From IMG/VR virus record IMGVR_UViG_3300045996_001882, positions 1-58,905 of that record: a DNA stretch of 58,905 nt; one strand, given 5' to 3'. A program made the translations under genes and the position numbers. Shown in pieces: positions 46,788 to 56,507 of this stretch (positions within the stretch are counted from its first letter, which is position 1; the number at the start of each line of letters is the position of its first letter). The notes below the pieces were generated by a model. That model saw nothing but the letters and a program-made list of their open reading frames with translations, was not told where the DNA came from and did no database searches. This DNA is from a virus. Its lineage: Duplodnaviria > Caudoviricetes.

Positions 46788-47618
46788 GTGGCGACCACCA
46801 CCGCGCGCAAGGTCGCAGCACGCAAGGACTACGACGCGATTGCTGCGAGCAAGATCACGAGCCCCACGGCTCAGGGTCTGTTCCGCCCGCGCATTCTCGT
46901 CTACGGCAAGAATAAGAAGGGCAAGACCCGTTTCTGCACCACGCCCGGCAAGGGCAAAGTGCTGATCGTCGACCCCGAAGAGGGCACGAAGGCGATGAAG
47001 CGGCTCGACCCGGACGTCTGGCCGATCTCGAAGTGGGAAGACATCGATGATGTCTACAACTTCCTGAAGGGGGGCAATCACAACTACGAGTACGTCGCCC
47101 TCGACGGGATGACGCGCATTCACGACTTCGCCATTCGGTGGGTCATGAACGTGGCAGCTGAAGCCCGCCTCGACTCGAAGCCTGTTCTGGTGCAGAAGCA
47201 GCACTACGGCCAGGCAGGTCGACTGACGTCGGACCTGATCACGAACTTCCACAACCTCCCCATGGGTGTCATCTACACCGCTCAGGAGCGCATGGAGGCC
47301 AGTGCGGGGTTCGACGAGGAGGACGACGACGTCGAGCAGGCTGCTGCTCAGATCGTTCCCGCACTTCCGAAGGGTGCACGCGCCGCGCTCAACCAGATCG
47401 TGGACGTGATCGGCCGAATCTACATCGTGAAGGTCGAGAACCCGAAGGACCCGGAGAAGGTCATTCTCCAACGACGGCTGTTCGTGGAACCGAGCGAGCG
47501 ATTCGACACGGGTTACCGTTCGGACTTCCAGCTGCCGCCATTCATCAAGAACCCGACAGTTCCGCGTCTCATGGATCTGATCAACACGGGTAAGAGCGAA
47601 AGGGTTACCGCCAAGTGA
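46788..47618 (+). CDS. AAA_24 / Sak4-like RecA-family ATPase (276 aa)
   Basis: YGKNKKGKT, IVDPEEG, VALDG, YTAQE. Confidence 0.8.
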   Translation: MATTTARKVAARKDYDAIAASKITSPTAQGLFRPRILVYGKNKKGKTRFCTTPGKGKVLIVDPEEGTKAMKRLDPDVWPISKWEDIDDVYNFLKGGNHNYEYVALDGMTRIHDFAIRWVMNVAAEARLDSKPVLVQKQHYGQAGRLTSDLITNFHNLPMGVIYTAQERMEASAGFDEEDDDVEQAAAQIVPALPKGARAALNQIVDVIGRIYIVKVENPKDPEKVILQRRLFVEPSERFDTGYRSDFQLPPFIKNPTVPRLMDLINTGKSERVTAK

Positions 47619-48262
47619 GCAACAAGGCTACCACCACGATTCTCGACTTCTCCCAGGCGAAGGAGCGCGGGGCATACAACCCCAAGCACATCGAGGAGGG
47701 GGACTACGTCGGCAAGATCGTGCACATCGTGGACTCGCCCACGAAGGAGAAGGACGACGGCACGGGCAACAAGCCGCAGTGGATCGTCGGGATCGTCCTG
47801 GACGACGTCCGCGGTGCCTCGTACCCGTACCGCTGCCAGCTCGAGCCGGACCAGCTGTGGAAGCTGCGCAACGTGTTCGAGGCCGTCGGCATGAAGGTCG
47901 GTCAGCGTCGGATCAAGGTCGACCCGCAGAAGGCGGTCGGCAAGAAGATCGGCGTGACCATCATCGACAACGAGTACAACGGCAAGGTCTCCTCCCAGAT
48001 CGACCAGGTGTTCCCCGCGTCCGACCTGATCGCTGGTGACGAGGACGACGTCGATCCGGAGGACGTCGACACCGACGAGGAAGAGACCGAGGAGGAGCCC
48101 GCTCCCCCGGCTCGTCGCACCAAGGCTGCTGTCGCCACGACCGCGAAGAAGACGACGGCGAAGCGTGCGACGAAGCCCGCCCCGGCCCCCGAGCCGGAGG
48201 ACGAGGAGGAAGAGGAGATCACCGACGAGGACCTCGAAGAGCTGGACGTCGACGAGCTGTAG
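47615..48262 (+). CDS. Single-stranded DNA-binding protein, DUF669-like, with acidic tail (215 aa)
   Basis: EEGDY, LWKLR, EYNGK; Asp/Glu-rich C-terminus; follows Sak4-like gene. Confidence 0.7.
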   Translation: MSNKATTTILDFSQAKERGAYNPKHIEEGDYVGKIVHIVDSPTKEKDDGTGNKPQWIVGIVLDDVRGASYPYRCQLEPDQLWKLRNVFEAVGMKVGQRRIKVDPQKAVGKKIGVTIIDNEYNGKVSSQIDQVFPASDLIAGDEDDVDPEDVDTDEEETEEEPAPPARRTKAAVATTAKKTTAKRATKPAPAPEPEDEEEEEITDEDLEELDVDEL

Positions 48263-48294
48263 TTCCTCTCCCCACACCGCCGCCAACAATTAGT

Positions 48295-48323
48295 TTGACA
48301 TCGGGGACGCGATACGTCATACT
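48295..48323 (+). promoter_or_regulatory. Sigma70-type promoter
   Basis: TTGACA-N17-CATACT. Confidence 0.65.
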
Positions 48324-48329
48324 GATTGC

Positions 48330-48412
48330 GCGGTGATCCGAACAACACTCGTCGAGTGCGTTCGTCATACCAGGAGCCGGGCTGTGTTAATCCCCTTGCA
48401 GCCCGGCTCTTC
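48330..48412 (+). ncRNA. Candidate two-hairpin small RNA or leader (about 80 nt)
   Basis: Lies between promoter and an 11-bp stem; internal stem CGAAC..CACTC/GAGTG.GTTCG. Confidence 0.4.
48374..48412 (+). terminator. Intrinsic terminator-like hairpin
   Basis: GAGCCGGGCTG / CAGCCCGGCTC 11-bp stem followed by TTC. Confidence 0.55.
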
Positions 48413-48440
48413 GGTAGGCAACTGAGAAAGGCTAACGAAC

Positions 48441-48743
48441 ATGTCCGGACCCGAGACTCGAATTCAGCGCGCCATTCAGAAGATGGTGAAATCCCGCGGT
48501 GGGTTCGTCTTCAAAGTACACGGCTCTGAGACGATGATGGCAGGATTGCCCGACCTCGTCGTGTGCTACAAGGGTTACTTCATCGCGTTCGAGGTCAAGA
48601 CACCCGTCGGCAAGTTGTCAGAGCGTCAGCGGTACGTGCATCGCATGATGTCACGCGCTGAAGCGATCGTAGCCGTGCCTACAAGCGTCGCTGAAGCCTC
48701 CGCAGTGCTCGATGACGTGGACACATGGTGCGACGCAAACTAG
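48441..48743 (+). CDS. VRR-NUC nuclease / Holliday junction resolvase (100 aa)
   Basis: E..IQ, KVHGS, GLPDL, FEVKTP.GKLSERQ. Confidence 0.88.
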   Translation: MSGPETRIQRAIQKMVKSRGGFVFKVHGSETMMAGLPDLVVCYKGYFIAFEVKTPVGKLSERQRYVHRMMSRAEAIVAVPTSVAEASAVLDDVDTWCDAN

Positions 48744-48794
48744 ACGCTCACAGACGATTTGAGCGCCGGTGCAAATGCAAATCAGTACGCCCGC

Positions 48795-48821
48795 CGAAAA
48801 GCCGCCCGGGGGCGGCCTCGG
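48795..48821 (-). terminator. Terminator at convergence of replication arm and early cassettes
   Basis: GCCGCC-CCCG-GGCGGC then TTTT on minus strand. Confidence 0.6.
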
Positions 48822-49400
48822 TTAGCGAGATGCGCGGCACACACGACGCGCGGCCGGTGTGGAAGGATGCGAGCACGAGGAGTGGGAGGTCGACGTACGG
48901 CGAGCAGGGGGAGCAGCAGCGACCGGCGACTCGTCCTCGAGCCCGGTGACGGTGACATCCTTCATGCCGGCAACACGTCGGACAGCAGCGATGAACACAT
49001 CGCGCTGGTACACGCGGACATCGAACTCAAGGGAAGTGTTAACGACATACTCCCGGTCAGGACGGAGCAGGTAATGACCACTCACCAGAATGCGGTCCTG
49101 AGGCCCGTCGAGAGTCGAAATGGACTCGGTCGGCTCGATGCTGTCAACGATCACCCAGTACTTGTGGTCAACGAAGACGCGGTCGCCGATCTTGACGTTG
49201 GCCCACGTGGTCGTCATGGTGTGGCAGAGATCGTCGTAGATCTTGCGAGCACGCGCGGCAGCGGCGGTGAGCTTGTACCCCTTACCACTGCACCCGAGGC
49301 AACGACCCTCCCAAGCAGGCGAGGGATACGTACCGGTTCCCCCACACCGCGTGCACGGCTCGACATGGAACTTGATGCTGAGCTTCGAGTTCGTCGTCAT
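48822..49400 (-). CDS. Protein with DnaJ-type CxxCxGxG zinc finger and C-terminal HCHC module (192 aa)
   Basis: CTRCGGTG...CLGCSGKG; SHSSCSHPSTPAARRVCR. Confidence 0.75.
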   Translation of the reverse strand: MTTNSKLSIKFHVEPCTRCGGTGTYPSPAWEGRCLGCSGKGYKLTAAAARARKIYDDLCHTMTTTWANVKIGDRVFVDHKYWVIVDSIEPTESISTLDGPQDRILVSGHYLLRPDREYVVNTSLEFDVRVYQRDVFIAAVRRVAGMKDVTVTGLEDESPVAAAPPARRTSTSHSSCSHPSTPAARRVCRASR

Positions 49401-49432
49401 GGGGAGATCCTATCAGAGATGTCAGGTGAACT

Positions 49433-50053
49433 TCAGGCGAAGGAGCGCGACGAGCGGCAGCGACGTCGAGCAGCAGGCGTTGCATCGTGCCCGCAGGTCG
49501 CGTGTGACGACCCGGAGCGCTTCGCCGGCACAACTACCGGGGCGACGTTGTTTGGGGCGTCAGCGACGATCTCAGCGGTGGAATTATCAGCCTCGGTCAG
49601 CTGATTCGTTGCTGTAACGTTACCTTGGGCGAGGTAGATCGGCTTGTCGACCCCCTCAACCCGGATTCCCACCCGCGGACCCCAGTGGCTGTCACCAACC
49701 CACATCACGATGCCCGAAGTGCCGATCTTGACCTTGCGGCCCTTAGTGACGGTGACATGCTGGTCGACAACGATTTGGCCCGAGGCCAGCTCGTGACGGA
49801 TCTTGTCCTGGTACTCGACGACGGCGTCAGGGTCGCATTCGTGCACGTGCCAGCAAGCGGTGCGGCGGGCGCCGGACGCGGCCCGGTACGTCACGTCGAG
49901 CAGCTGGTTTTTCCGGTTGTACCGGGCGACTTCCCGCCCACACGCGTAGCATCGGCCCAAGTCGTGCACGTCCTCAGCCTGGTGGTTCCGCCCGTAGCAC
50001 GTGATGTGCAGCGTATCAGGGTTGCGCACGAAGCGCGGGCGCGTAGTCGTCAT
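49433..50053 (-). CDS. Protein with Cys/His region, KOW/SH3-like segment and C-terminal HCHC module (206 aa)
   Basis: VTVTKGRKVKIGTSGIVMW...RVGI; SHATCGHDATPAARRRCR. Confidence 0.75.
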   Translation of the reverse strand: MTTTRPRFVRNPDTLHITCYGRNHQAEDVHDLGRCYACGREVARYNRKNQLLDVTYRAASGARRTACWHVHECDPDAVVEYQDKIRHELASGQIVVDQHVTVTKGRKVKIGTSGIVMWVGDSHWGPRVGIRVEGVDKPIYLAQGNVTATNQLTEADNSTAEIVADAPNNVAPVVVPAKRSGSSHATCGHDATPAARRRCRSSRSFA

Positions 50054-50246
50054 GTGACGACCTTATCAGAAGTCCTGGGAAGAACCCAACAAGAACTTCA
50101 GCTCGCTCGTACGCAGGCGCAAGGGCCGGACGTATCCTAGGTATCTTCAGTCCTTCACCTGACGTCACGCGAGCGCTGAAGCCCAGTTTGCACTTGCAAA
50201 GACCCCTGCCCACCACTGAGCCGGCACGAGGCCGGCAGGGTGTGGA

Positions 50247-50609
50247 TCAAGCGGTGCGGCGTGCCTTGCGGCAAGCAGCGCGACCCTTCGACGTGCGAGC
50301 GTGCGTGCAGAAGGCGTGGGAGGAAGACGTGGGGACATGCACCTCGGCGTGCGCAAGGGACATCGCATGGGGCACATGCAGGTGGTAGTACGAGATGAAC
50401 GCGGGGACGAACCCGTAGTCGTCAGTTGCAGGGTCGTACGAGTACGAGTACGCGGGCATCGCGACGGCGACGAACTCGAGGGCCTGACGTGCGGTTTCGA
50501 CCTCGAAGTGCATTTCCTGGTCGGCGGAGGGGCGGACATCCGGTTCGGTCAGGTAGAGCATGTTGTCGTCGGCGTCGAAGGCGGTGATTCGGTACGTCGC
50601 GGTGTTCAT
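50247..50609 (-). CDS. Hypothetical protein with C-terminal HCHC module (120 aa)
   Basis: Own promoter; SHAFCTHARTSKGRAACR. Confidence 0.75.
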   Translation of the reverse strand: MNTATYRITAFDADDNMLYLTEPDVRPSADQEMHFEVETARQALEFVAVAMPAYSYSYDPATDDYGFVPAFISYYHLHVPHAMSLAHAEVHVPTSSSHAFCTHARTSKGRAACRKARRTA

Positions 50610-50663
50610 GCCAGAACTCTACCACACCCGGCGACAGGGTCGCAACAGGTGTGGCGAAGAGTT

Positions 50664-50993
50664 TCAGGCGGACGCGGCACGTGCCTTGCGGCAGGCAGCA
50701 CGCGCCTTGGGCGTCACCTCGTGGTCACACGCAGCGTGTGACCTGCGCGTCTTGGCAACGGTGTTCGTGTGGCCGGTGCGCAGTTGGGGCTTCGCGTTCA
50801 GGCAGACGAGGCAACCTTCGCGCTCCTCAGCGTCCTCGGGAAGGTTGTCGTGGTTGCCATCCTCGTGGCAGTTTTCCCAGCCCCAGAAATCGTAGCACTT
50901 GTTGCACACGTCGCGGTAGTGGCGGCCCGGGGTGCGGTTTGCGGCGGTGATGCGCGTACCACATTCGGTGCAGGTGATCGTCGTTTTCGTCAT
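50664..50993 (-). CDS. Cys-rich protein with C-terminal HCHC module (109 aa)
   Basis: Three CxxC pairs; SHAACDHEVTPKARAACR. Confidence 0.75.
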   Translation of the reverse strand: MTKTTITCTECGTRITAANRTPGRHYRDVCNKCYDFWGWENCHEDGNHDNLPEDAEEREGCLVCLNAKPQLRTGHTNTVAKTRRSHAACDHEVTPKARAACRKARAASA

Positions 50994-51112
50994 GCCAGAA
51001 CTTTACCACACCTCAGCGCAGACGTGCAAGGGGTATGGTGATTTGCTTGTGCAAACTGTCCTCTCACCGACAAACCCGCACGTGGCGGGCAGTCGGGGGA
51101 GGGGGTCAGTGA

Positions 51113-51451
51113 TCAGTCAGCGAGCGTGTCGCTGTCCTCGAGCTTCAGGATCGCGTCAACGATCAGGACCTCGAGCGAGTCGTCAGAGAGCTCGGTCAGC
51201 GTCTCGCGGATTTCCAACATCGCACGATCGATCAGGTCGGCGTTCTCGACGTTGGGGGCGACGTTGTTGCGCTCCTCGATCGCGCAGAGGATCCCGTACG
51301 CGGTGACATTGTGGGGATCGGTCGGGGAGAACATCCCGTACGTGTTGAGCTCGCGCGGGGACACCTCGTCGTCGAGCCAGGTCACGAGCGTGCGGATCGC
51401 GGTGTCGACGTCATCGGCGGTGTGCGGGCGGGTGTTCGCGTTGTTCGTCAT
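51113..51451 (-). CDS. Acidic hypothetical protein (112 aa)
   Basis: Own promoter, downstream hairpin. Confidence 0.7.
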   Translation of the reverse strand: MTNNANTRPHTADDVDTAIRTLVTWLDDEVSPRELNTYGMFSPTDPHNVTAYGILCAIEERNNVAPNVENADLIDRAMLEIRETLTELSDDSLEVLIVDAILKLEDSDTLAD

Positions 51452-51500
51452 GTGAAGACCTTACCACACGCCTGCGTCGTCGCGCAACAGGTCATCACAG

Positions 51501-51737
51501 TCACTTGCGCGCGTCGCCTGCCTGGGCCCACTCGAAGCGCGGGTACCCTTCAGACGCCCGTTCGCGCCCGATCAGGTCACGAGCGTGGTCCCAGCTCGCG
51601 GTTTCCAGGAGGATCTCGTACGACACCGCGGTCCCACCTGGTGACGTGTAGGGACGCAACTGACGAACTGCCTGGTCAGCGGTGGTGACGTTGATCGAAC
51701 CGACGTAGCCGTCGTTGCGGCGGAAGACGAAAAACAC
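51501..51737 (-). CDS. Hypothetical protein (78 aa)
   Basis: ORF fills gap; GAAGGG upstream. Confidence 0.5.
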   Translation of the reverse strand: MFFVFRRNDGYVGSINVTTADQAVRQLRPYTSPGGTAVSYEILLETASWDHARDLIGRERASEGYPRFEWAQAGDARK

Positions 51738-51749
51738 GAGGAGTACCCT

Positions 51750-52187
51750 TCAGATTTCGATGGTGTGGATGATGTCGTAGGGAAAGACCATCTCGTTGTC
51801 CTCGTGGTCGAGGCCCTCGATCGCGTCGTCGCCGACGCGGGTGAGACGAATGAGGGTGTCAACGGGAACGTCACCGAGACCCGGAACTGCATGGGTAACC
51901 GTGATGAACTTCTCGACTTCCTGGTCAAGCGCACGTGACAGCAGGATCAACGTGTTCGTGAAGCGGTCGCGCGAGCTCTGAGTACGCCGTGAGCGCCTCG
52001 AAGTCGTTCGCCGCGGTGACGTCTCGGTCGGCGTACGATCGGCGCTCACGGACGAACTCAGCGCCTGACCGAACGGCGTGACGAGCAAGTTCGTCGTGTC
52101 CGCGGCGGGGGTGATTCCCGCACGCCGGCACGCGGCACGACCCGCCGGAGTAGCGGGGTGGTCACACAGCTTATGAGACATGGCCAT
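51750..52187 (-). CDS. Hypothetical protein with N-terminal HCHC module (145 aa)
   Basis: MAMSHKLCDHPATPAGRAACR; GGAAGG RBS. Confidence 0.7.
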   Translation of the reverse strand: MAMSHKLCDHPATPAGRAACRRAGITPAADTTNLLVTPFGQALSSSVSADRTPTETSPRRTTSRRSRRTQSSRDRFTNTLILLSRALDQEVEKFITVTHAVPGLGDVPVDTLIRLTRVGDDAIEGLDHEDNEMVFPYDIIHTIEI

Positions 52188-52269
52188 GATCAGAACGCCT
52201 TCCAGGGAGAACACGCCAATGCGCGGCCCGCGATTGAGCAAGCAGCGCATTGACGTGCGGCGGGAATGG

Positions 52270-52575
52270 TCAGCGGGCAGCGACGATGTTGCGCTTGATG
52301 CGCCAGGTCATGGCACGCGTGGCGTCGTGCGAGGACCAATCGACCTCGTTCTCGTTCACCTCGATGATCGGCTTGTCGGTGCGGGTACGCACGGAGGTCA
52401 CGATGCGGTACGTCGTGCGACGCCGGCGCAGCTGGGCGGGCGTGGCCGGGATCACGATGTCGCGGTTCGAGGGCGTGAAGTCGACAGTCACATCACCCAC
52501 ACGCAGATCGCGAGCGAACACGAGTTCGAGGTCGGCGGGAGTCACAGTGGCGCGGAAGGCGTCGGTGTTCGTCAT
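52270..52575 (-). CDS. Hypothetical protein (101 aa)
   Basis: Own promoter; ARDLRVGD motif. Confidence 0.65.
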   Translation of the reverse strand: MTNTDAFRATVTPADLELVFARDLRVGDVTVDFTPSNRDIVIPATPAQLRRRRTTYRIVTSVRTRTDKPIIEVNENEVDWSSHDATRAMTWRIKRNIVAAR

Positions 52576-52690
52576 GCCATAACCTTACCAGGACTCACGT
52601 CGTCATGCAACAGGAAACCCAAGTTTGCTTTAGCAAATACTGACCGCTCTCCGAAGCGCACCCGGAGGTGCGCGCGGAGGAAGGGGCAGG

Positions 52691-53002
52691 TCAGAGGGAC
52701 GTGGGGTCGACGTTCTTGACGCAGTTCTTGCACGTCACACACTCGGCGAGCGCGTCGACACGCTCCGCGGAGTCGAGGATGTTCTTCTTCGTGCAGGCGA
52801 ACGTATCACCGTTGGCGAAGTGAACGACCTTCGACCCCTTCGCGATGACCGCCGGGTACGTGGGGGGCAGAACGACCTTCGTCGCCTTCGGCGTCACGCC
52901 GGCACGGGCCCGGCGGCAGGCGGCACGAGCGACCTTCGTGCGGGGGTGAGTGCAAGCGGTGTGGGCGGTGGTGCGGGGCGCGGTGTTCGTGTTCGTCGTC
53001 AT
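52691..53002 (-). CDS. Protein with N-terminal HCHC module and C-terminal H/C zinc finger (103 aa)
   Basis: AHTACTHPRTKVARAACR; VVH...C...VTCKNC. Confidence 0.75.
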   Translation of the reverse strand: MTTNTNTAPRTTAHTACTHPRTKVARAACRRARAGVTPKATKVVLPPTYPAVIAKGSKVVHFANGDTFACTKKNILDSAERVDALAECVTCKNCVKNVDPTSL

Positions 53003-53101
53003 GCCATAAACCTAATGCCTGTGTGGCGTGGTGTCAACACGCTTCGCAGAAGTCGGCCTGTTTTCTTTTGCAAACATGCTCTGACCTGGCCAAACTGCCG
53101 C

Positions 53102-53131
53102 AAAGCCCCGCGACGTCGAAGGTCACGGGGC
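53102..53131 (-). terminator. Intrinsic terminator
   Basis: GCCCCGTGAC-N7-GTCGCGGGGC then TTT on minus strand. Confidence 0.55.
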
Positions 53132-53148
53132 CCGCGGGGGTCAGATCA

Positions 53149-53382
53149 TCAGGGGTACGTGTCGCCCGGGGCGTACTTGCTCGCCTCGTCCTCGCTCACG
53201 CACACGGTCTTGATCGCCTGGTCGCCAGGCGGGTCGACAGCGATCGACCAGAACTTGTCCTGCCCACACTCCTTCGAGGGGACGTCAGGGCTGTACACGT
53301 TGACGACGGTGCCACTGACGGTGTTGCACGCAGTGAGCGCGAAGGCCATCGCCACGAGCGCGGCGGTGAACTTGGTACGCAT
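53149..53382 (-). CDS. Predicted lipoprotein (77 aa)
   Basis: MRTK + hydrophobic core + LTAC lipobox; two further Cys; GAAGGA RBS. Confidence 0.75.
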   Translation of the reverse strand: MRTKFTAALVAMAFALTACNTVSGTVVNVYSPDVPSKECGQDKFWSIAVDPPGDQAIKTVCVSEDEASKYAPGDTYP

Positions 53383-53428
53383 GTCATTGGTCCTTCAGGT
53401 AGGCGGTGAAGCGAACACAGGAACTGTA

Positions 53429-53707
53429 TCAGACCTGACGCTGCGCTCGACACCTTTTCCGGGCAGCAGGAGTGTGTTCGTGATCACACCCAGCATGTGA
53501 CCCCAACTTGCGCGACCCTGGAGGACGAGGAGCGGCCGACTTCTCCCGCGTACACGTGATGCACGACGAGTTGAGACGCTCCTCGTGTTCGCCGTCACGG
53601 TGCTCCCGTGCCAGCTCAGCGACGAGCCAGCACACCGGACACAGCTGATCACGGGCCCGAGATCGCACGCGGTCGCACTTGGGGCACACGAACGCGCTCA
53701 CGGTCAC
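53429..53707 (-). CDS. Cys-rich protein with C-terminal HCHC module (92 aa)
   Basis: Three CxxC pairs; SHAGCDHEHTPAARKRCR. Confidence 0.7.
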   Translation of the reverse strand: MTVSAFVCPKCDRVRSRARDQLCPVCWLVAELAREHRDGEHEERLNSSCITCTREKSAAPRPPGSRKLGSHAGCDHEHTPAARKRCRAQRQV

Positions 53708-53898
53708 ATCCGCGATTCGCGACGAACCCGAGGGATGCGGTGCAGCACAGTGGCCCAGTCAGGAGTGGCACCCTCGTGCGCGATCGGACGCAGGCGATGT
53801 TTCCCCGTGTACGCGTACGAAGGGACGGTGCTGTAGATCAGGTTGACGACCCACACGACGAGGGCGGCCCCAACGATCAGGGTCAAGAGCGTGGTCAC
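53704..53898 (-). CDS. Small membrane protein (64 aa)
   Basis: N-terminal TM; YTGKHR; GGAGG RBS. Confidence 0.55.
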   Translation of the reverse strand: MTTLLTLIVGAALVVWVVNLIYSTVPSYAYTGKHRLRPIAHEGATPDWATVLHRIPRVRRESRM

Positions 53899-54293
53899 GC
53901 GGAGACCTCCGAGTCAGTGCGGTTGAAGCGCGTCATCTGCGAGAGGTGCAGGCCGGCAGCGCGGAGGCGTGCCTCCAGGCGGTCGACACGCTCACGCGAC
54001 GCAGCGTCACGGCGCTCACGCTCGCTGCGGGTGAGCCCGCGGTGGAGCTGGTCGGTCGTGAGGATGAAGTCAGTGTCCTTGACCTGGCGGCGAGGGGTGC
54101 GCGCCTTGGCCTCGGCGGCGGGGGCCTTCGCGTTGAACCGCTTCTCCAGGACGACCAGGTCGGCGTCGCTGAAGGCGTACTTGCCGCCCGCGCCGGCGTT
54201 GCGGAACGTGGGGTCGGACCGGAGGAACTGACGGAGCTTCTTCGGCGTGGTCCCGATGCGCTCGGCAGCCGCCTTGGTGTCGTACGAGGTCAT
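53895..54293 (-). CDS. MerR-like helix-turn-helix DNA-binding protein (132 aa)
   Basis: TKAAAERIGTTPKKLRQFLRS...GGKYAF; GAGGA RBS. Confidence 0.75.
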   Translation of the reverse strand: MTSYDTKAAAERIGTTPKKLRQFLRSDPTFRNAGAGGKYAFSDADLVVLEKRFNAKAPAAEAKARTPRRQVKDTDFILTTDQLHRGLTRSERERRDAASRERVDRLEARLRAAGLHLSQMTRFNRTDSEVSA

Positions 54294-54390
54294 TGCGGTG
54301 ATCCTCTTCTTCGTGGAGTTGTCTTTCGGTCTTGCAACTCGAACGTACACGAGGGGCGTGCGACGTGTCAAATCACACGCCCCCGTGTCG

Positions 54391-54588
54391 TCACATGTTC
54401 GGCAGGTTCGAGATCCCGTCAGACGCGTTGACGAGCATGTTCCCGATCATGCGCATGTCATCGCACGACCCGGACATCACCTCACGCCCGTTGACGACGA
54501 GGTGCACGATGTTCGTGTCCTCGTTGCGATACACGGCGATCACGTTCGGGTGCGTCGGGGAGGGGAGCGGGTTCGCGTTGTTCGTCAT
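54391..54588 (-). CDS. Hypothetical protein (65 aa)
   Basis: Leaderless promoter; MTNNAN start shared with 51113-51451. Confidence 0.65.
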   Translation of the reverse strand: MTNNANPLPSPTHPNVIAVYRNEDTNIVHLVVNGREVMSGSCDDMRMIGNMLVNASDGISNLPNM

Positions 54589-54644
54589 GTGAGAACTGTA
54601 CCACACCCGTCAGAGGCGACACAACAGGTGTGGCACAAGATCTT

Positions 54645-54899
54645 TTAGTCGTGATCCATGTCGCAGTCGTCGTCGCAGTCGTGCTCGTTGACGAGATCCA
54701 TCAGGTCGTTGAGGAGATCGTCGGACACGTGCCCGTAGTGCTTCGTGATGATGTCGCGCACGGCGAGGTTGTAGATCATCGTGATTCCCGTGTTCGCCTG
54801 CGTGTCCTCGAGCAGGATCAACGGGTCGTCATCGACCGCCTCGGCGTAGGCGTACAGCTCGTCGAGGAACGCGGTGTCAGTTTCGGTTTCGTTCGTCAT
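54645..54899 (-). CDS. Very acidic hypothetical protein (84 aa)
   Basis: Leaderless promoter; Asp/Glu-rich. Confidence 0.65.
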   Translation of the reverse strand: MTNETETDTAFLDELYAYAEAVDDDPLILLEDTQANTGITMIYNLAVRDIITKHYGHVSDDLLNDLMDLVNEHDCDDDCDMDHD

Positions 54900-55006
54900 G
54901 CCACAACACTACCCGCACCTGCAGTCATCGCGCAACCTGAACCTCTGTGACGCAGGTCACACAGTCATGTCTTGACAACACCCCTGCGTCAGGTTAGTGT
55001 TGTGGC

Positions 55007-55315
55007 ATGACGAACAACACGAACAACATCGCCTCGATCATCACCTGCACCGGGCGACGCGGCGCGAAGGCCTGCTCCCACGCTGCGAAGGCGGGTCGCA
55101 CGATTCACGCGATCCCCGCACATCGTGACGACTTCTACCTCGTCCTCCCCACGTATCACTTCACGTCCGCCGAGGAGGCGCTGACGTACGTGTCCAACGC
55201 GTTCGACAACGCGCCCCTCGTCACGTCCGACGCCGATCGCGAGTCGTTCGAGGCTCAGGAGATCGCGTTCAAGATCCCGAGGACGTACGTGCACCCCTCT
55301 CGTCGCAACGTCTGA
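55007..55315 (+). CDS. Hypothetical protein (102 aa)
   Basis: TTGACA-N17-TAGTGT-N6-ATG. Confidence 0.7.
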   Translation: MTNNTNNIASIITCTGRRGAKACSHAAKAGRTIHAIPAHRDDFYLVLPTYHFTSAEEALTYVSNAFDNAPLVTSDADRESFEAQEIAFKIPRTYVHPSRRNV

Positions 55316-55710
55316 TCATTCCCCACACGCCCGACGCTCGGGAGGCGCTGATCGCGTCTCTCGGGCGTTTTCGTGAGCGTCGTGCGTGATCGTGCGTTCG
55401 TACGTGTTGCGGACGAGCACGAGCCTGCTAGCAGGCACGAAACGTCTCTCGTCATTCTCGTCAATCACCATGTAATACCCACGCCCGGCATTGTAGAGAA
55501 TCCTCACCAATCCGACAGTGCCACACGTCGCGTACATTGATTCAGACATTCCCATTCCTCTCTGCACAAAGCCCACACCAGGCGAAATACGATTGGTCGC
55601 AGTTGACGATTCTGCATTCGTATTTCTGGGGGAGCTTGGTGTGGGCTTCATGCTCGGATCATCGTTGCCTGGGCCATCGCTTTGTTCGCAACCCAAGAAA
55701 CTACCCGAAG

Positions 55711-55796: not shown

Positions 55797-56507
55797 TCAG
55801 TCGTCGAGATCCTCGACGTCGTCCTCGTCCTCGTCCTCGAACTCGTCCTCGACGGGCGCCGCGGGCTTGGCGGCCTTCTTGCCGGCGGGCTTCGCGGCCT
55901 TCTTGGCCTTGAGCTCGGCGAGCTTCGCCTTCTTCTCCTTCTCGAGGGTGCCCGAACGCACGTGCTCGACCAGGGCGACGACCACCGGGTCGTTCTCACC
56001 CTCGAAGGAGTACCTGCCGCGCTCCTCGCCGATCTCGCGGTCGAGCTGACCGGACCGCGCCATCTTGCGCAGGAGGGCCCGCAGGTCGTACGGCTTGTAG
56101 ACACGCCCGGTCTGGGTGGCGACGTGGTCCGCGAGCCACGAGGAACCGAACTGGATCGCCGGCTGCTTGGGCTTCACGGCCTTCTTCGCCGGCTTCGCGG
56201 GCTCCTCCGCCGCGGCAGCAGCCTTGCGACGACGCTTCGCCGCAGGCTTGACCTCCTCGGGCTCCTCCTCCTCGGCGAGCTCCTCGTCGTCCTCGTCGTC
56301 GTCCGAGTCCTGCTCTTCGTCCTCGACGGGCTCGGGTTCGGGCGCGGCGGCCTTGCGACGACGCTTGGTCGGTGCCGGCGCGGGGGTCTCCTCGTCCTCG
56401 GACTCGTCGTCCAGCTCGATGTCGTCCAGCTCGTCGGGGTCGACAGTGGCGGGCACAGCGGGCTTCACAGGAGTGGTGGCGCGGCGACGTCGAGTGGTGG
56501 GCGGCAT
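55797..56507 (-). CDS. Histone-like low-complexity protein with central HTH-like domain (236 aa)
   Basis: Alternating D/E and K/A/P tracts; WLADHV...YDLRALLRKM...GRYSF; own TTGACA promoter and GAGG RBS. Confidence 0.75.
   Translation of the reverse strand: MPPTTRRRRATTPVKPAVPATVDPDELDDIELDDESEDEETPAPAPTKRRRKAAAPEPEPVEDEEQDSDDDEDDEELAEEEEPEEVKPAAKRRRKAAAAAEEPAKPAKKAVKPKQPAIQFGSSWLADHVATQTGRVYKPYDLRALLRKMARSGQLDREIGEERGRYSFEGENDPVVVALVEHVRSGTLEKEKKAKLAELKAKKAAKPAGKKAAKPAAPVEDEFEDEDEDDVEDLDD

What the first reader, a model, noticed from the sequence alone, without database searches (positions are those of the whole stretch)
48822..53707. Seven unrelated early proteins share a terminal H-x2-C-x-H-x2-T-x3-R-x2-C-R module
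Seen: SHSSCSHPSTPAARRVCR (48822-49400), SHATCGHDATPAARRRCR (49433-50053), SHAFCTHARTSKGRAACR (50247-50609), SHAACDHEVTPKARAACR (50664-50993), SHKLCDHPATPAGRAACR (51750-52187), AHTACTHPRTKVARAACR (52691-53002), SHAGCDHEHTPAARKRCR (53429-53707). Spacing is invariant; five copies are C-terminal and two N-terminal, usually on a Ser/Thr/Pro/Arg-rich linker; the cargo domains differ completely and the DNA has diverged, so conservation is at protein level. Inference: a portable His2Cys2 zinc knuckle plus basic helix acting as an address tag that brings varied effectors to one target (nucleic acid, RNA polymerase, ribosome or a shared scaffold). I cannot assign it to a named family.
Basis: partly seen in the sequence, partly recalled or inferred. 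Interest (0 to 1): 0.85.

Follow-up and report, generated by a model that had tools for sequence, protein, structure and literature searches.

The report
Portable zinc-knuckle module in actinophage proteins
Seven otherwise unrelated small proteins of this phage share a 17-residue His/Cys motif followed by a basic helix; the same unnamed, movable mini-domain occurs in many phages of actinobacteria and probably binds zinc and tethers its carriers to DNA or to one common target.

Summary
H-x2-C-x-H-x2-T-x3-R-x2-C-R occurs exactly seven times in the six-frame translation, all on the minus strand at the stated coordinates. Shuffles give about 0.08 hits for a looser pattern.

With the motif masked, the seven proteins share no significant similarity. 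The motif DNA is only 57% identical on average.

The module is a real, widespread, unnamed domain:
- Pfam, NCBIfam and PDB sequences give no hit to it. Only PHROGs of unknown function cover it.
- A 27-position profile finds 989 cluster representatives among 1.84 billion proteins.
- Streptomyces phage Zuko has 11 copies, Gordonia phage Emalyn 2 and Mycobacterium phage Muddy 1, and all but one carrier gene seen are annotated hypothetical.
- In bacterial genomes, profile-positive loci are titled only as Actinomycetota.

It behaves as a portable unit:
- The same cargo carries it at the N-terminus in one protein and the C-terminus in another.
- Some proteins hold 2-4 tandem copies.
- The second ligand varies Cys to His.
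- AlphaFold2 predicts a short turn plus a helix with pLDDT 88-93.

The few named cargoes mostly act on DNA: SprT-like, Endonuclease VII and HNH.

Best reading: a zinc-stabilised basic helix that tethers carriers to nucleic acid. Docking to a host protein remains open. Nothing here measures binding.

The parts
48822..49400 (-). Gene 1 (192 aa). Cargo is a DnaJ/anti-TRAP-like CxxCxGxG zinc finger plus a domain of unknown family. The module is C-terminal, encoded at 48834-48884.
   Evidence: ORF and peptide; regex; weak Pfam DnaJ_CXXCXGXG/Anti-TRAP at residues 14-48, below cutoffs; the cargo is homologous to P0102, which carries the module at its N-terminus (E=7e-18).
49433..50053 (-). Gene 2 (206 aa). 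Cargo matches phrog_37790 (unknown function). The module is C-terminal, encoded at 49454-49504.
50247..50609 (-). Gene 3 (120 aa). Cargo has no family. The module is C-terminal, encoded at 50268-50318.
50664..50993 (-). Gene 4 (109 aa). Cargo is a CxxC...CxxC...H...CxxC zinc-ribbon-like domain with a conserved GHTNTVAK stretch before the module. It belongs to the largest cargo family and resembles Muddy gp3, Zuko gp93 and Emalyn gp32. The module is C-terminal, encoded at 50688-50738.
   Evidence: AlphaFold2 mean pLDDT 83.5: turn at residues 86-88, helix at 95-108, linker 71-80 at pLDDT 57.
51750..52187 (-). Gene 5 (145 aa from the ATG at 52187). The module is N-terminal (encoded at 52125-52175), followed by a Ser/Thr/Pro/Arg-rich linker and a cargo of unknown family.
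52691..53002 (-). Gene 6 (103 aa). The module is N-terminal, encoded at 52913-52963. Cargo has no family.
53429..53707 (-). Gene 7 (92 aa, GTG start overlapping the stop of the upstream gene). Cargo is an N-terminal CxxC...CxxC. The module is C-terminal, encoded at 53447-53497.
48822..54899 (-). Leftward cluster of about 15 small genes, 7 of them carrying the module. It converges on the rightward replication and recombination genes (Sak4-like 46788-47618, 47615-48262, VRR-NUC-like nuclease 48441-48743).
   Evidence: Zuko shows the same layout: RecA-like recombinase, a hypothetical protein, a nuclease, then a convergent array of module genes.

Best explanation
The shared element is an autonomous mini-domain of about 20-25 residues with the consensus [S/D/N]-H-x2-C-x-H-[P/E]-x-T-[P/K]-x-[A/G]-R-A-A-C-R-[K/R]-A-R. 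His, Cys and His sit on a short turn, and the last Cys sits on the second turn of a basic, alanine-rich alpha-helix capped by the invariant Thr. The four residues most likely hold one zinc ion, which makes so short a peptide fold on its own. Because it folds alone and hangs on a flexible linker, recombination has moved it between many unrelated small proteins of phages and integrated elements of Actinomycetota. It is found at either end, internally, or in tandem. I think its most likely job is to tether these proteins to nucleic acid, most probably DNA, through the arginine/lysine face of the helix. Shown here: the motif, its portability, its distribution and its absence from curated families. 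Inferred: zinc binding. More weakly inferred: nucleic acid as the target.
For: Reality and portability:
- 7 of 7 copies are confirmed, against about 0.08 expected.
- The cargoes are unrelated and the DNA has diverged.
- 989 representatives at E<=0.001 among 1.84 billion proteins.
- 22 cargo groups among 122 proteins.
- Gene 1 (module C-terminal) and P0102 (module N-terminal) share their cargo at E=7e-18.
- 18 of 143 representatives carry 2-4 copies.

Metal site:
- In the 277 collected instances, picked with a regex that fixed the four ligand positions as His or Cys (ligand 2 came out C 97% / H 3%), the positions left free are nearly invariant: Thr 99%, Arg 97% and Arg 97%.
- 7 of 122 proteins have SH-x2-H-x-H in place of SH-x2-C-x-H, with the rest of the motif intact.

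Autonomous fold:
- AlphaFold2 on the motif-only alignment gives pLDDT 88, 93 and 83 for the three blocks covering the motif and 66 for the flank, with a turn at H-x-x and a 14-residue helix from the Pro.
- The same elements appear in full-length gene 4, behind a low-confidence linker.

Nucleic-acid leaning:
- Mean net charge is +3.7 over 26 residues, with 0.19 aromatic residues per motif.
- Among cargoes with a Pfam family: SprT-like 1+3+2, Endonuclease_7 1 (P0126: two Endo VII domains plus four motif copies), HNH_3 1, YgjP-like peptidase 1, Phage_zn_bind_8 ('putative DNA-binding phage zinc finger') 3.
- Emalyn gp30, annotated SprT-like protease, starts with the motif at residue 4.
- A Streptomyces chromosomal copy is fused to an Ala/Lys/Pro repeat tail, which I read as histone-like.
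- Tandem arrays joined by basic linkers are typical of nucleic-acid-binding fingers (established knowledge).
Against: - No tool here measures zinc or nucleic-acid binding.
- Only about 25 of the 376 protein or ORF scans (sets of 120, 143 and 113, which partly overlap) gave any Pfam family. The DNA-related cargoes are therefore a small, annotation-biased sample.
- Other named cargoes say nothing about DNA: DUF6011, DUF2637 (recalled as a membrane family), DUF2786 and anti-TRAP-like zinc fingers.
- On a helical wheel the invariant Arg residues lie next to the Cys that packs on the knuckle. They may be structural rather than ligand-contacting (my inference).
- Very strong conservation of a small surface across phages of distant hosts also fits docking to one conserved protein.
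- HTH or winged-helix readings of some cargoes are only sub-threshold hits: HTH_31 at E=0.013 and FaeA at E=0.0043.
- Structure searches gave no analogue.
Confidence: 0.45

Rival explanations
1. Protein-docking address tag. The knuckle and helix bind one conserved protein of Actinomycetota, or of the phages themselves, such as RNA polymerase or a sigma factor, a replisome or recombination hub, or a chaperone/protease adaptor. Many early proteins would then be recruited to the same place.
For: The surface is extremely conserved (R, A-A, R-K) in phages of Streptomyces, Gordonia, Mycobacterium, Nocardia and Micromonospora-type hosts. There are up to 7, 10 and 11 different carriers per genome. The module is restricted to Actinomycetota-associated elements: 29 of 84 pattern-positive genome loci are profile-positive, and the 28 whose titles I saw all name Actinomycetota genera. 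The alanine stripe on the helix would suit tight helix-helix packing (inference).
Against: No partner was identified. Tandem copies within one protein and fusion to nucleases and SprT-like proteases fit nucleic-acid binding more simply. Carriers that already have a putative DNA-binding domain would gain little from a protein tag.
Confidence: 0.27
2. Structural or regulatory cap. The module only stabilises, oligomerises or switches its carrier, for example as a zinc- or redox-sensitive fold or a self-association element among the carriers, and has no external target.
For: Most conserved positions can be explained by fold requirements: ligands, the N-cap Thr/Pro, and small residues facing the knuckle. 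Cys/His sites can sense redox state or metal (established knowledge).
Against: The module is separated from the cargo by low-confidence, low-complexity linkers and works at either end, which is unusual for a stabilising cap. The invariant Arg pair and the basic tail are not needed for a mere cap.
Confidence: 0.12
3. Sorting signal. The module directs proteins into the virion for co-injection, or into a secretion or degradation pathway.
For: It is terminal in most proteins: among 165 instances in 143 representatives, 113 are N-terminal, 20 C-terminal and 32 internal.
Against: Internal and tandem copies exist. The carrier genes sit among non-structural small genes with their own promoter-like elements, convergent on replication genes and not in the structural module. 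The motif has no hydrophobic or cleavage-site features.
Confidence: 0.04
4. Artefact. The pattern is a chance match in GC-rich reading frames, or a recent DNA duplication or gene conversion without function.
For: GC-rich frames do produce chance matches: 55 of 84 pattern-positive bacterial loci fail the profile.
Against: There are seven in-frame copies in real ORFs against 0.08 expected. Nucleotide identity is 57% with synonymous variation. The profile finds 989 representatives.
Confidence: 0.01

Closest known systems
Module-bearing 'hypothetical proteins' of sequenced actinobacteriophages: Streptomyces phage Zuko gp84-gp95, Gordonia phage Emalyn gp30 and gp32, Mycobacterium phage Muddy gp3. 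PHROG families 18656 and 1342.
   Same: The motif and spacing are the same. Zuko has 11 profile matches in one minus-strand array between 65.8 and 71.8 kb, placed directly after RecA-like recombinase, a hypothetical protein and a nuclease, as in the window. Six of the seven window proteins hit phrog_18656, five of them over the motif region only and gene 4 over nearly its whole length.
   Different: There is no DNA similarity to any record of the phage collection. Cargoes are mostly different. These records and PHROGs give no function and no name for the motif. Emalyn gp30 is named for its SprT-like part only.
Retroviral-type CCHC zinc knuckle (Pfam zf-CCHC; name and spacing recalled)
   Same: Both are four-ligand Cys/His sites within about 16 residues. 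Both are portable, often occur in tandem with basic linkers, and are used to hold proteins on nucleic acid.
   Different: Ligand order and spacing differ: H-x2-C-x-H-x9-C here against C-x2-C-x4-H-x4-C. The last ligand here lies in a long helix. There are no conserved aromatic residues (0.19 per motif). No Pfam hit at E<=1.
Classical C2H2 zinc finger and its prokaryotic Ros/MucR form (recalled)
   Same: Both have two His and two Cys, a helix that carries a ligand and basic residues, and a role in DNA binding.
   Different: The order is reversed and three ligands precede the helix. No beta-hairpin is predicted. The module is only about 20-25 residues long. Neither sequence nor fold searches give a match.
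Accessory zinc-binding and basic DNA-binding regions of SprT/Spartan-family proteases (recalled)
   Same: A small zinc or basic module is attached to an SprT-like metalloprotease, as in Emalyn gp30, P0042 and others.
   Different: No similarity was tested or seen. Here the module is N-terminal and is shared with dozens of non-protease cargoes.
Pfam PF24623 Phage_zn_bind_8 (putative DNA-binding phage zinc finger)
   Same: It is also a small phage zinc motif. It co-occurs in the same proteins in 3 of 143 representatives.
   Different: It is a different element. In P0169 it covers residues 5-57, while the module lies at 138-164.

Membership tests
zf-CCHC zinc knuckle | C-x2-C-x4-H-x4-C ligand spacing (recalled) | tested here: not met
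   All seven copies read H-x2-C-x-H-x9-C.
zf-CCHC zinc knuckle | Match to the Pfam model | tested here: not met
   No such hit at E<=1 in the 7 proteins, and none at E<=0.001 in 376 further scans.
Classical C2H2 zinc finger | C-x2-4-C-x12-H-x3-5-H spacing with a beta-beta-alpha fold (recalled) | tested here: not met
   The ligand order is H,C,H,C. AlphaFold2 shows a 3-residue turn and one helix, with no strands in the module.
PHROG 18656 (unknown function) | Profile match | tested here: met
   Six of seven proteins match: gene 4 at E=4.1e-17 over residues 4-108, and genes 1, 2, 5, 6 and 7 at E=1.4e-3 to 2.8e-7, over the motif region only in genes 1, 2, 5 and 6. Gene 3 has no hit.
Structural zinc site (generic) | Four invariant Cys/His ligands within a short span | tested here: met
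   H, C, H and C are invariant in the 7 copies and in the 94-row alignment. In the 277 collected instances all four positions are His or Cys, a restriction partly imposed by the regex used to collect them.
Structural zinc site (generic) | Ligand positions tolerate only Cys/His exchange | tested here: met
   Ligand 2 is His in 7 of 122 proteins and in 1 of 165 instances. No other ligand variant was seen among the listed hits.
Structural zinc site (generic) | Metal actually bound, with ligands in tetrahedral geometry | not testable with these tools
   The fold tool returns no coordinates. No experiment was done.
Nucleic-acid-binding module (generic) | Basic surface and association with nucleic-acid enzymes | tested here: inconclusive
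   Net charge is +3.7. SprT-like, Endonuclease_7, HNH_3 and Phage_zn_bind_8 cargoes are present, but most cargoes have no family.
Nucleic-acid-binding module (generic) | Direct binding to DNA or RNA | not testable with these tools
   No tool here models protein with nucleic acid.
Pfam PF24623 Phage_zn_bind_8 | The Pfam model covers the motif | tested here: not met
   None of the 7 proteins hit it. In P0169 the hit covers residues 5-57, not the motif.

The most novel reading that the evidence does not exclude
The module is a phage-wide docking code. One conserved knuckle-helix sends up to 7-11 different early proteins per genome to a single conserved hub of Actinomycetota, a host protein complex or a defined nucleoid structure. 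Finding that hub would reveal a common point of host takeover for phages of Streptomyces, Gordonia and Mycobacterium, and would give a ready-made targeting tag for these bacteria.
Probability: 0.2. Interest if true: 0.85.

Novelty: new variant of a known kind. Interest (0 to 1): 0.62.

Why it matters
Small early genes of actinobacteriophages are mostly of unknown function. This work gives a compact, recognisable domain that links hundreds of them: 989 representatives at 50% identity, and up to 11 genes in one cultured phage. It is absent from the Pfam and NCBIfam copies searched here, and my six text searches found no paper that describes it.

It is easy to test, because a 25-residue peptide can be checked for zinc and DNA binding. 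It could be curated as a new family, which would improve the annotation of many phage genomes, including the therapeutic phage Muddy (gp3).

If it turns out to be a targeting module, it would group otherwise unrelated takeover proteins by their site of action. It would also provide a small tag for directing proteins in actinobacteria. If it is merely a generic DNA-binding finger, the finding is a useful but ordinary addition to the zinc-finger catalogue.

Tried and rejected
Searches and tests that led nowhere, or that I set aside:
- Nucleotide search of the region against the phage collection: no match.
- tblastn with the 45-residue module: only 5 records at E>=2, with alignments ending at query residues 30-31, which I take to be the low-complexity filter masking the helix. 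Not informative.
- Pfam and NCBIfam on the seven proteins, on tandem-copy proteins and on three sets of relatives: no family covers the motif.
- PDB sequence profile search at E<=10: 0 hits.
- Foldseek against the PDB with the gene 4 model: 72 rows at E<=10 and none at E<=0.001. The best rows were generic treble-clef, LIM or GATA fingers, or ribosomal proteins, matching the cargo. With the 45-residue module model: 0 rows.
- ESM Atlas on residues 80-109: no usable feature hit. The structural rows were single-helix matches with no meaning.
- The E. coli-consensus promoter scan found 0 sites in 48600-55400. The promoter reading in 'noticed in passing' therefore rests on my alignment of upstream regions and on repeat families, not on that scan.
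- Complex prediction of two copies of the module with two zinc ions: 'no answer' (score 0.01, mark 0.42). I count it neither for nor against self-association.
- Literature. 'HxxCxH' anywhere: 0 papers. I read only the listings and abstract starts for actinobacteriophage + zinc + conserved motif terms, actinobacteriophage + 'zinc finger' (5 papers), Muddy + gp3, His2Cys2 + bacteriophage (3 papers) and SprT-like + actinobacteriophage (8 papers). None describes the motif.
- In PMC7474061 I read one passage. It lists an SprT-like gene of phage LHTSCC as toxic, with filamentation. I did not check whether that gene carries the motif.
- Considered and rejected: Rieske-type or other Fe-S site (the C-x-H is present but the second C-x2-H knuckle is not; from recalled motifs only), the bZIP basic region (A-A-x2-C-R spacing against A-A-C-R here; recalled), a lipobox or signal peptide (no hydrophobic stretch), and a RiPP leader (cargoes too large and diverse).

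Full report
WHAT THE WINDOW IS. The window is one complete virus record of 58,905 bp with direct terminal repeats. Its GC content is about 60%. The rightward genes between 33.5 and 48.7 kb encode:
- a primase/helicase
- a DNA helicase
- a family A DNA polymerase
- an exonuclease
- a thymidylate synthase
- a Sak4-like annealing protein
- a VRR-NUC-type nuclease

The region of the finding is a leftward cluster of about 15 small genes (54899 down to 48822) that converges on this module. There is no nucleotide match in the phage collection. At protein level gene 4 matches 32 records: Gordonia phages (25), Streptomyces (4), Mycobacterium (2) and Nocardia (1). The host is therefore almost certainly an actinobacterium.

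CHECK OF THE OBSERVATION.
- All seven ORFs and peptides are as quoted.
- The strict pattern H..C.H..T...R..CR occurs exactly seven times in the six-frame translation, all on the minus strand. A looser pattern with only the four His/Cys positions finds the same seven. One hundred shuffles of the window gave a mean of 0.08 hits.
- A profile built later from 94 motif segments finds the same seven and no eighth copy at E<=1.
- Invariant columns are H, C, H, T, R, C and R.
- With the motif masked, the seven proteins show no significant pairwise similarity. The best value is E=0.015, between two proteins that both begin with CxxC pairs.
- The 51 nt that encode the motif are 57% identical on average, with synonymous codon variation at every invariant residue.

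IS IT A NAMED FAMILY? No.
- Pfam at E<=1 and NCBIfam at E<=1 give only weak, sub-threshold hits to cargo zinc ribbons.
- A profile search of all PDB chain sequences at E<=10 gives nothing.
- Only PHROG families of unknown function (18656, 1342) align to the motif region.
- Six text searches found no paper describing it (listings and abstract starts only). Supplements were closed.

HOW WIDESPREAD IS IT?
- A word-seeded profile search found 260 proteins at E<=10 among 8,000 scored candidates, of which 120 were listed with E from 3.5e-11 to 3.3e-5.
- The exhaustive HMMER search, with a 27-position profile against 1.84 billion representatives, found 989 proteins at E<=0.001.
- A degenerate DNA pattern found 101 stretches in IMG/VR. 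Of the 130 peptide matches in them, about 100 are credible by simple criteria.
- Five complete relatives of similar size carry 10, 2, 3, 2 and 2 copies.
- In cultured phages, Zuko (Streptomyces) has 11 profile matches, Emalyn (Gordonia) 2 and Muddy (Mycobacterium) 1.
- The Zuko copies form one array, gp84-gp95, all annotated 'hypothetical protein'. The array sits just after a RecA-like recombinase, a hypothetical protein and a nuclease. This is the same layout as in the window.
- Emalyn gp30, annotated 'SprT-like protease', begins with the motif at residue 4. Emalyn gp32 has it at residue 87.
- In one genome per bacterial species, a slightly stricter DNA pattern hit 84 stretches. Only 29 of them pass the profile, and the 28 whose titles I saw all name Actinomycetota genera: Streptomyces, Micromonospora, Tsukamurella, Nocardia, Nocardiopsis, Frankia, Pseudonocardia, Actinacidiphila, Phytohabitans and Granulicoccus. 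The remaining 55, largely from other phyla, look like chance frames.
- Several positive loci hold 2-4 profile-scoring copies within 8 kb (L139, L155, L168). L139 also holds an ORF that I read as an integrase (not tested by a family search), as expected for prophages or integrated elements.

PORTABILITY.
- Among 122 proteins in hand, masked-motif BLAST gives 22 cargo groups.
- The cargo of gene 1 (module C-terminal) is homologous to that of P0102 (module N-terminal): 34% identity over 158 residues, E=7e-18. The two motifs align separately, end to opposite end.
- Among 143 further representatives, 125 have one copy, 15 two, 2 three and 1 four. Of 165 instances, 113 are N-terminal, 32 internal and 20 C-terminal.
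- The largest cargo family, to which gene 4 belongs, has its own conserved extension, G-H-T-N-T-V-A-K, a few residues before the module.

ANATOMY AND LIKELY FOLD. From 277 distinct instances the consensus is:

[S68/D17/N8]-H-[A/S/T]-x-[C97/H3]-x-H-[P72/E14]-x-T99-[P56/K28]-[A/K]-[A53/G36]-R97-A81-A66-C-R97-[K66/R17]-A-R

Mean net charge is +3.7 and there are almost no aromatic residues. The four ligand positions were fixed as His or Cys by the collecting regex; the other positions were not. AlphaFold2 on gene 4 with 58 homologues gives mean pLDDT 83.5. It shows a three-residue helical turn at H-A-A, a helix from the Pro to the C-terminus, and a linker at pLDDT 57 before the module. On the motif-only alignment the module blocks reach 88, 93 and 83 while the flank stays at 66, with the same secondary structure.

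The residue before the first His (S/D/N) and the invariant Thr-Pro are classic helix N-caps (established knowledge). The small residues at helix positions facing the last Cys would let the knuckle pack on the helix (inference). The only ligand variation seen is Cys to His at the second position, in 7 of 122 proteins and 1 of 165 instances. This is what a metal ligand tolerates. I therefore read the module as a single-zinc His-Cys-His-Cys mini-domain. No tool here returns coordinates or shows metal, so this remains an inference.

WHAT DOES IT DO? Most cargoes have no family.
- Of 120, 143 and 113 proteins or ORFs scanned (overlapping sets), Pfam at E<=0.001 names only these: SprT-like (1+3+2), DUF6011 (1+3), anti-TRAP/DnaJ-type zinc finger (3), Phage_zn_bind_8 (3), DUF2786 (2), DUF2637 (2), Endonuclease_7 (1), HNH_3 (1) and YgjP-like peptidase (1).
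- P0126 combines two Endonuclease VII domains with four motif copies, three of them in a C-terminal array joined by Arg-rich linkers.
- P0169 has the putative DNA-binding phage zinc finger at residues 5-57 and the module at its C-terminus.
- A Streptomyces chromosomal copy is fused to an Ala/Lys/Pro-repeat tail.
- Weak, sub-threshold HTH or winged-helix hits occur in two other carriers.

Taken together with the basic helix and the tandem arrays, I think the most likely role is a nucleic-acid (DNA) tether for diverse early proteins. I put my confidence in the whole explanation at about 0.45. Docking to one conserved actinobacterial or phage protein is the main rival (about 0.27). The extreme conservation of the surface and the many carriers per genome fit it well. 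A complex prediction for self-association gave no verdict and is not used. Structure searches gave no analogue.

COMPARISON WITH KNOWN KINDS. The module works like a zinc knuckle or finger used as a portable nucleic-acid or partner-binding element. It is not a member of zf-CCHC or C2H2: spacing, ligand order, predicted fold and profile matches all fail (see the membership table). It is the same element as in the unnamed 'hypothetical proteins' of Zuko, Emalyn and Muddy and in PHROG 18656 and 1342. I rate it a new variant of a known kind: a previously uncurated zinc mini-domain family specific to mobile elements of Actinomycetota.

VERDICT. Interest is 0.62. This is a clean, testable new domain that ties together many phage proteins of unknown function, but its function is still inferred.

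Noticed in passing
window 49393-49417, 50045-50072, 50601-50628, 50985-51012, 51443-51470, 52567-52594, 52982-53009, 54580-54607, 54891-54918 (minus-strand genes); 54972-55009 (plus-strand gene at 55007): Most small genes of the cluster are preceded by a conserved element. Read on the coding strand it is TTG(C/A)nn, about 17-18 nt, (T)G(G/T)TAnnGT, 6 nt, then the ATG. The plus-strand copy has a perfect TTGACA. This looks like one sigma-A-type promoter per gene with a leaderless mRNA, and a divergent promoter pair at 54.9-55.0 kb. Repeat families D2, D3, D8 and D16 and the upstream alignments show it. The E. coli-consensus scan found 0 sites.
   Followed up: partly
window 46788-48743 with 48822-54899; Zuko record 61795-71822 (L192, L005): The layout is conserved with Streptomyces phage Zuko despite no DNA similarity: a RecA/Sak4-like recombinase, a hypothetical protein and a nuclease on one strand, then a convergent array of module-bearing small genes.
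   Followed up: partly
window 55797-56507 (minus strand): A 236-aa ORF has alternating strongly acidic (D/E) runs, KRRRKAAA repeats and a Lys/Ala/Pro-rich tail around a central domain of unknown family. The DNA here produced the low-complexity repeat families D1, D7 and D10.
   Followed up: no
window 50664-50993 and homologues (alignment A4): The largest cargo family has four conserved Cys in CxxC pairs, a conserved W-E-N-x-H-x-D-x-G-H stretch and a G-H-T-N-T-V-A-K box just upstream of the module. This suggests a second metal site and a family-specific extension of the module.
   Followed up: partly
L139 (Streptomyces sp. contig, 8 kb): Four motif copies sit in three ORFs. Next to them are an HNH-like ORF and an ORF that reads like a tyrosine integrase, so this is probably a prophage or integrated element. 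One carrier has two tandem N-terminal modules.
   Followed up: partly
window 55007-55315 (plus strand): A 102-aa ORF starts M-T-N-N-T-N-N like the leftward genes. It carries a Cys/His/basic stretch (C-x-G-R-R-G-A-K-A-C-S-H) that does not fit the module and is not found by the profile.
   Followed up: no
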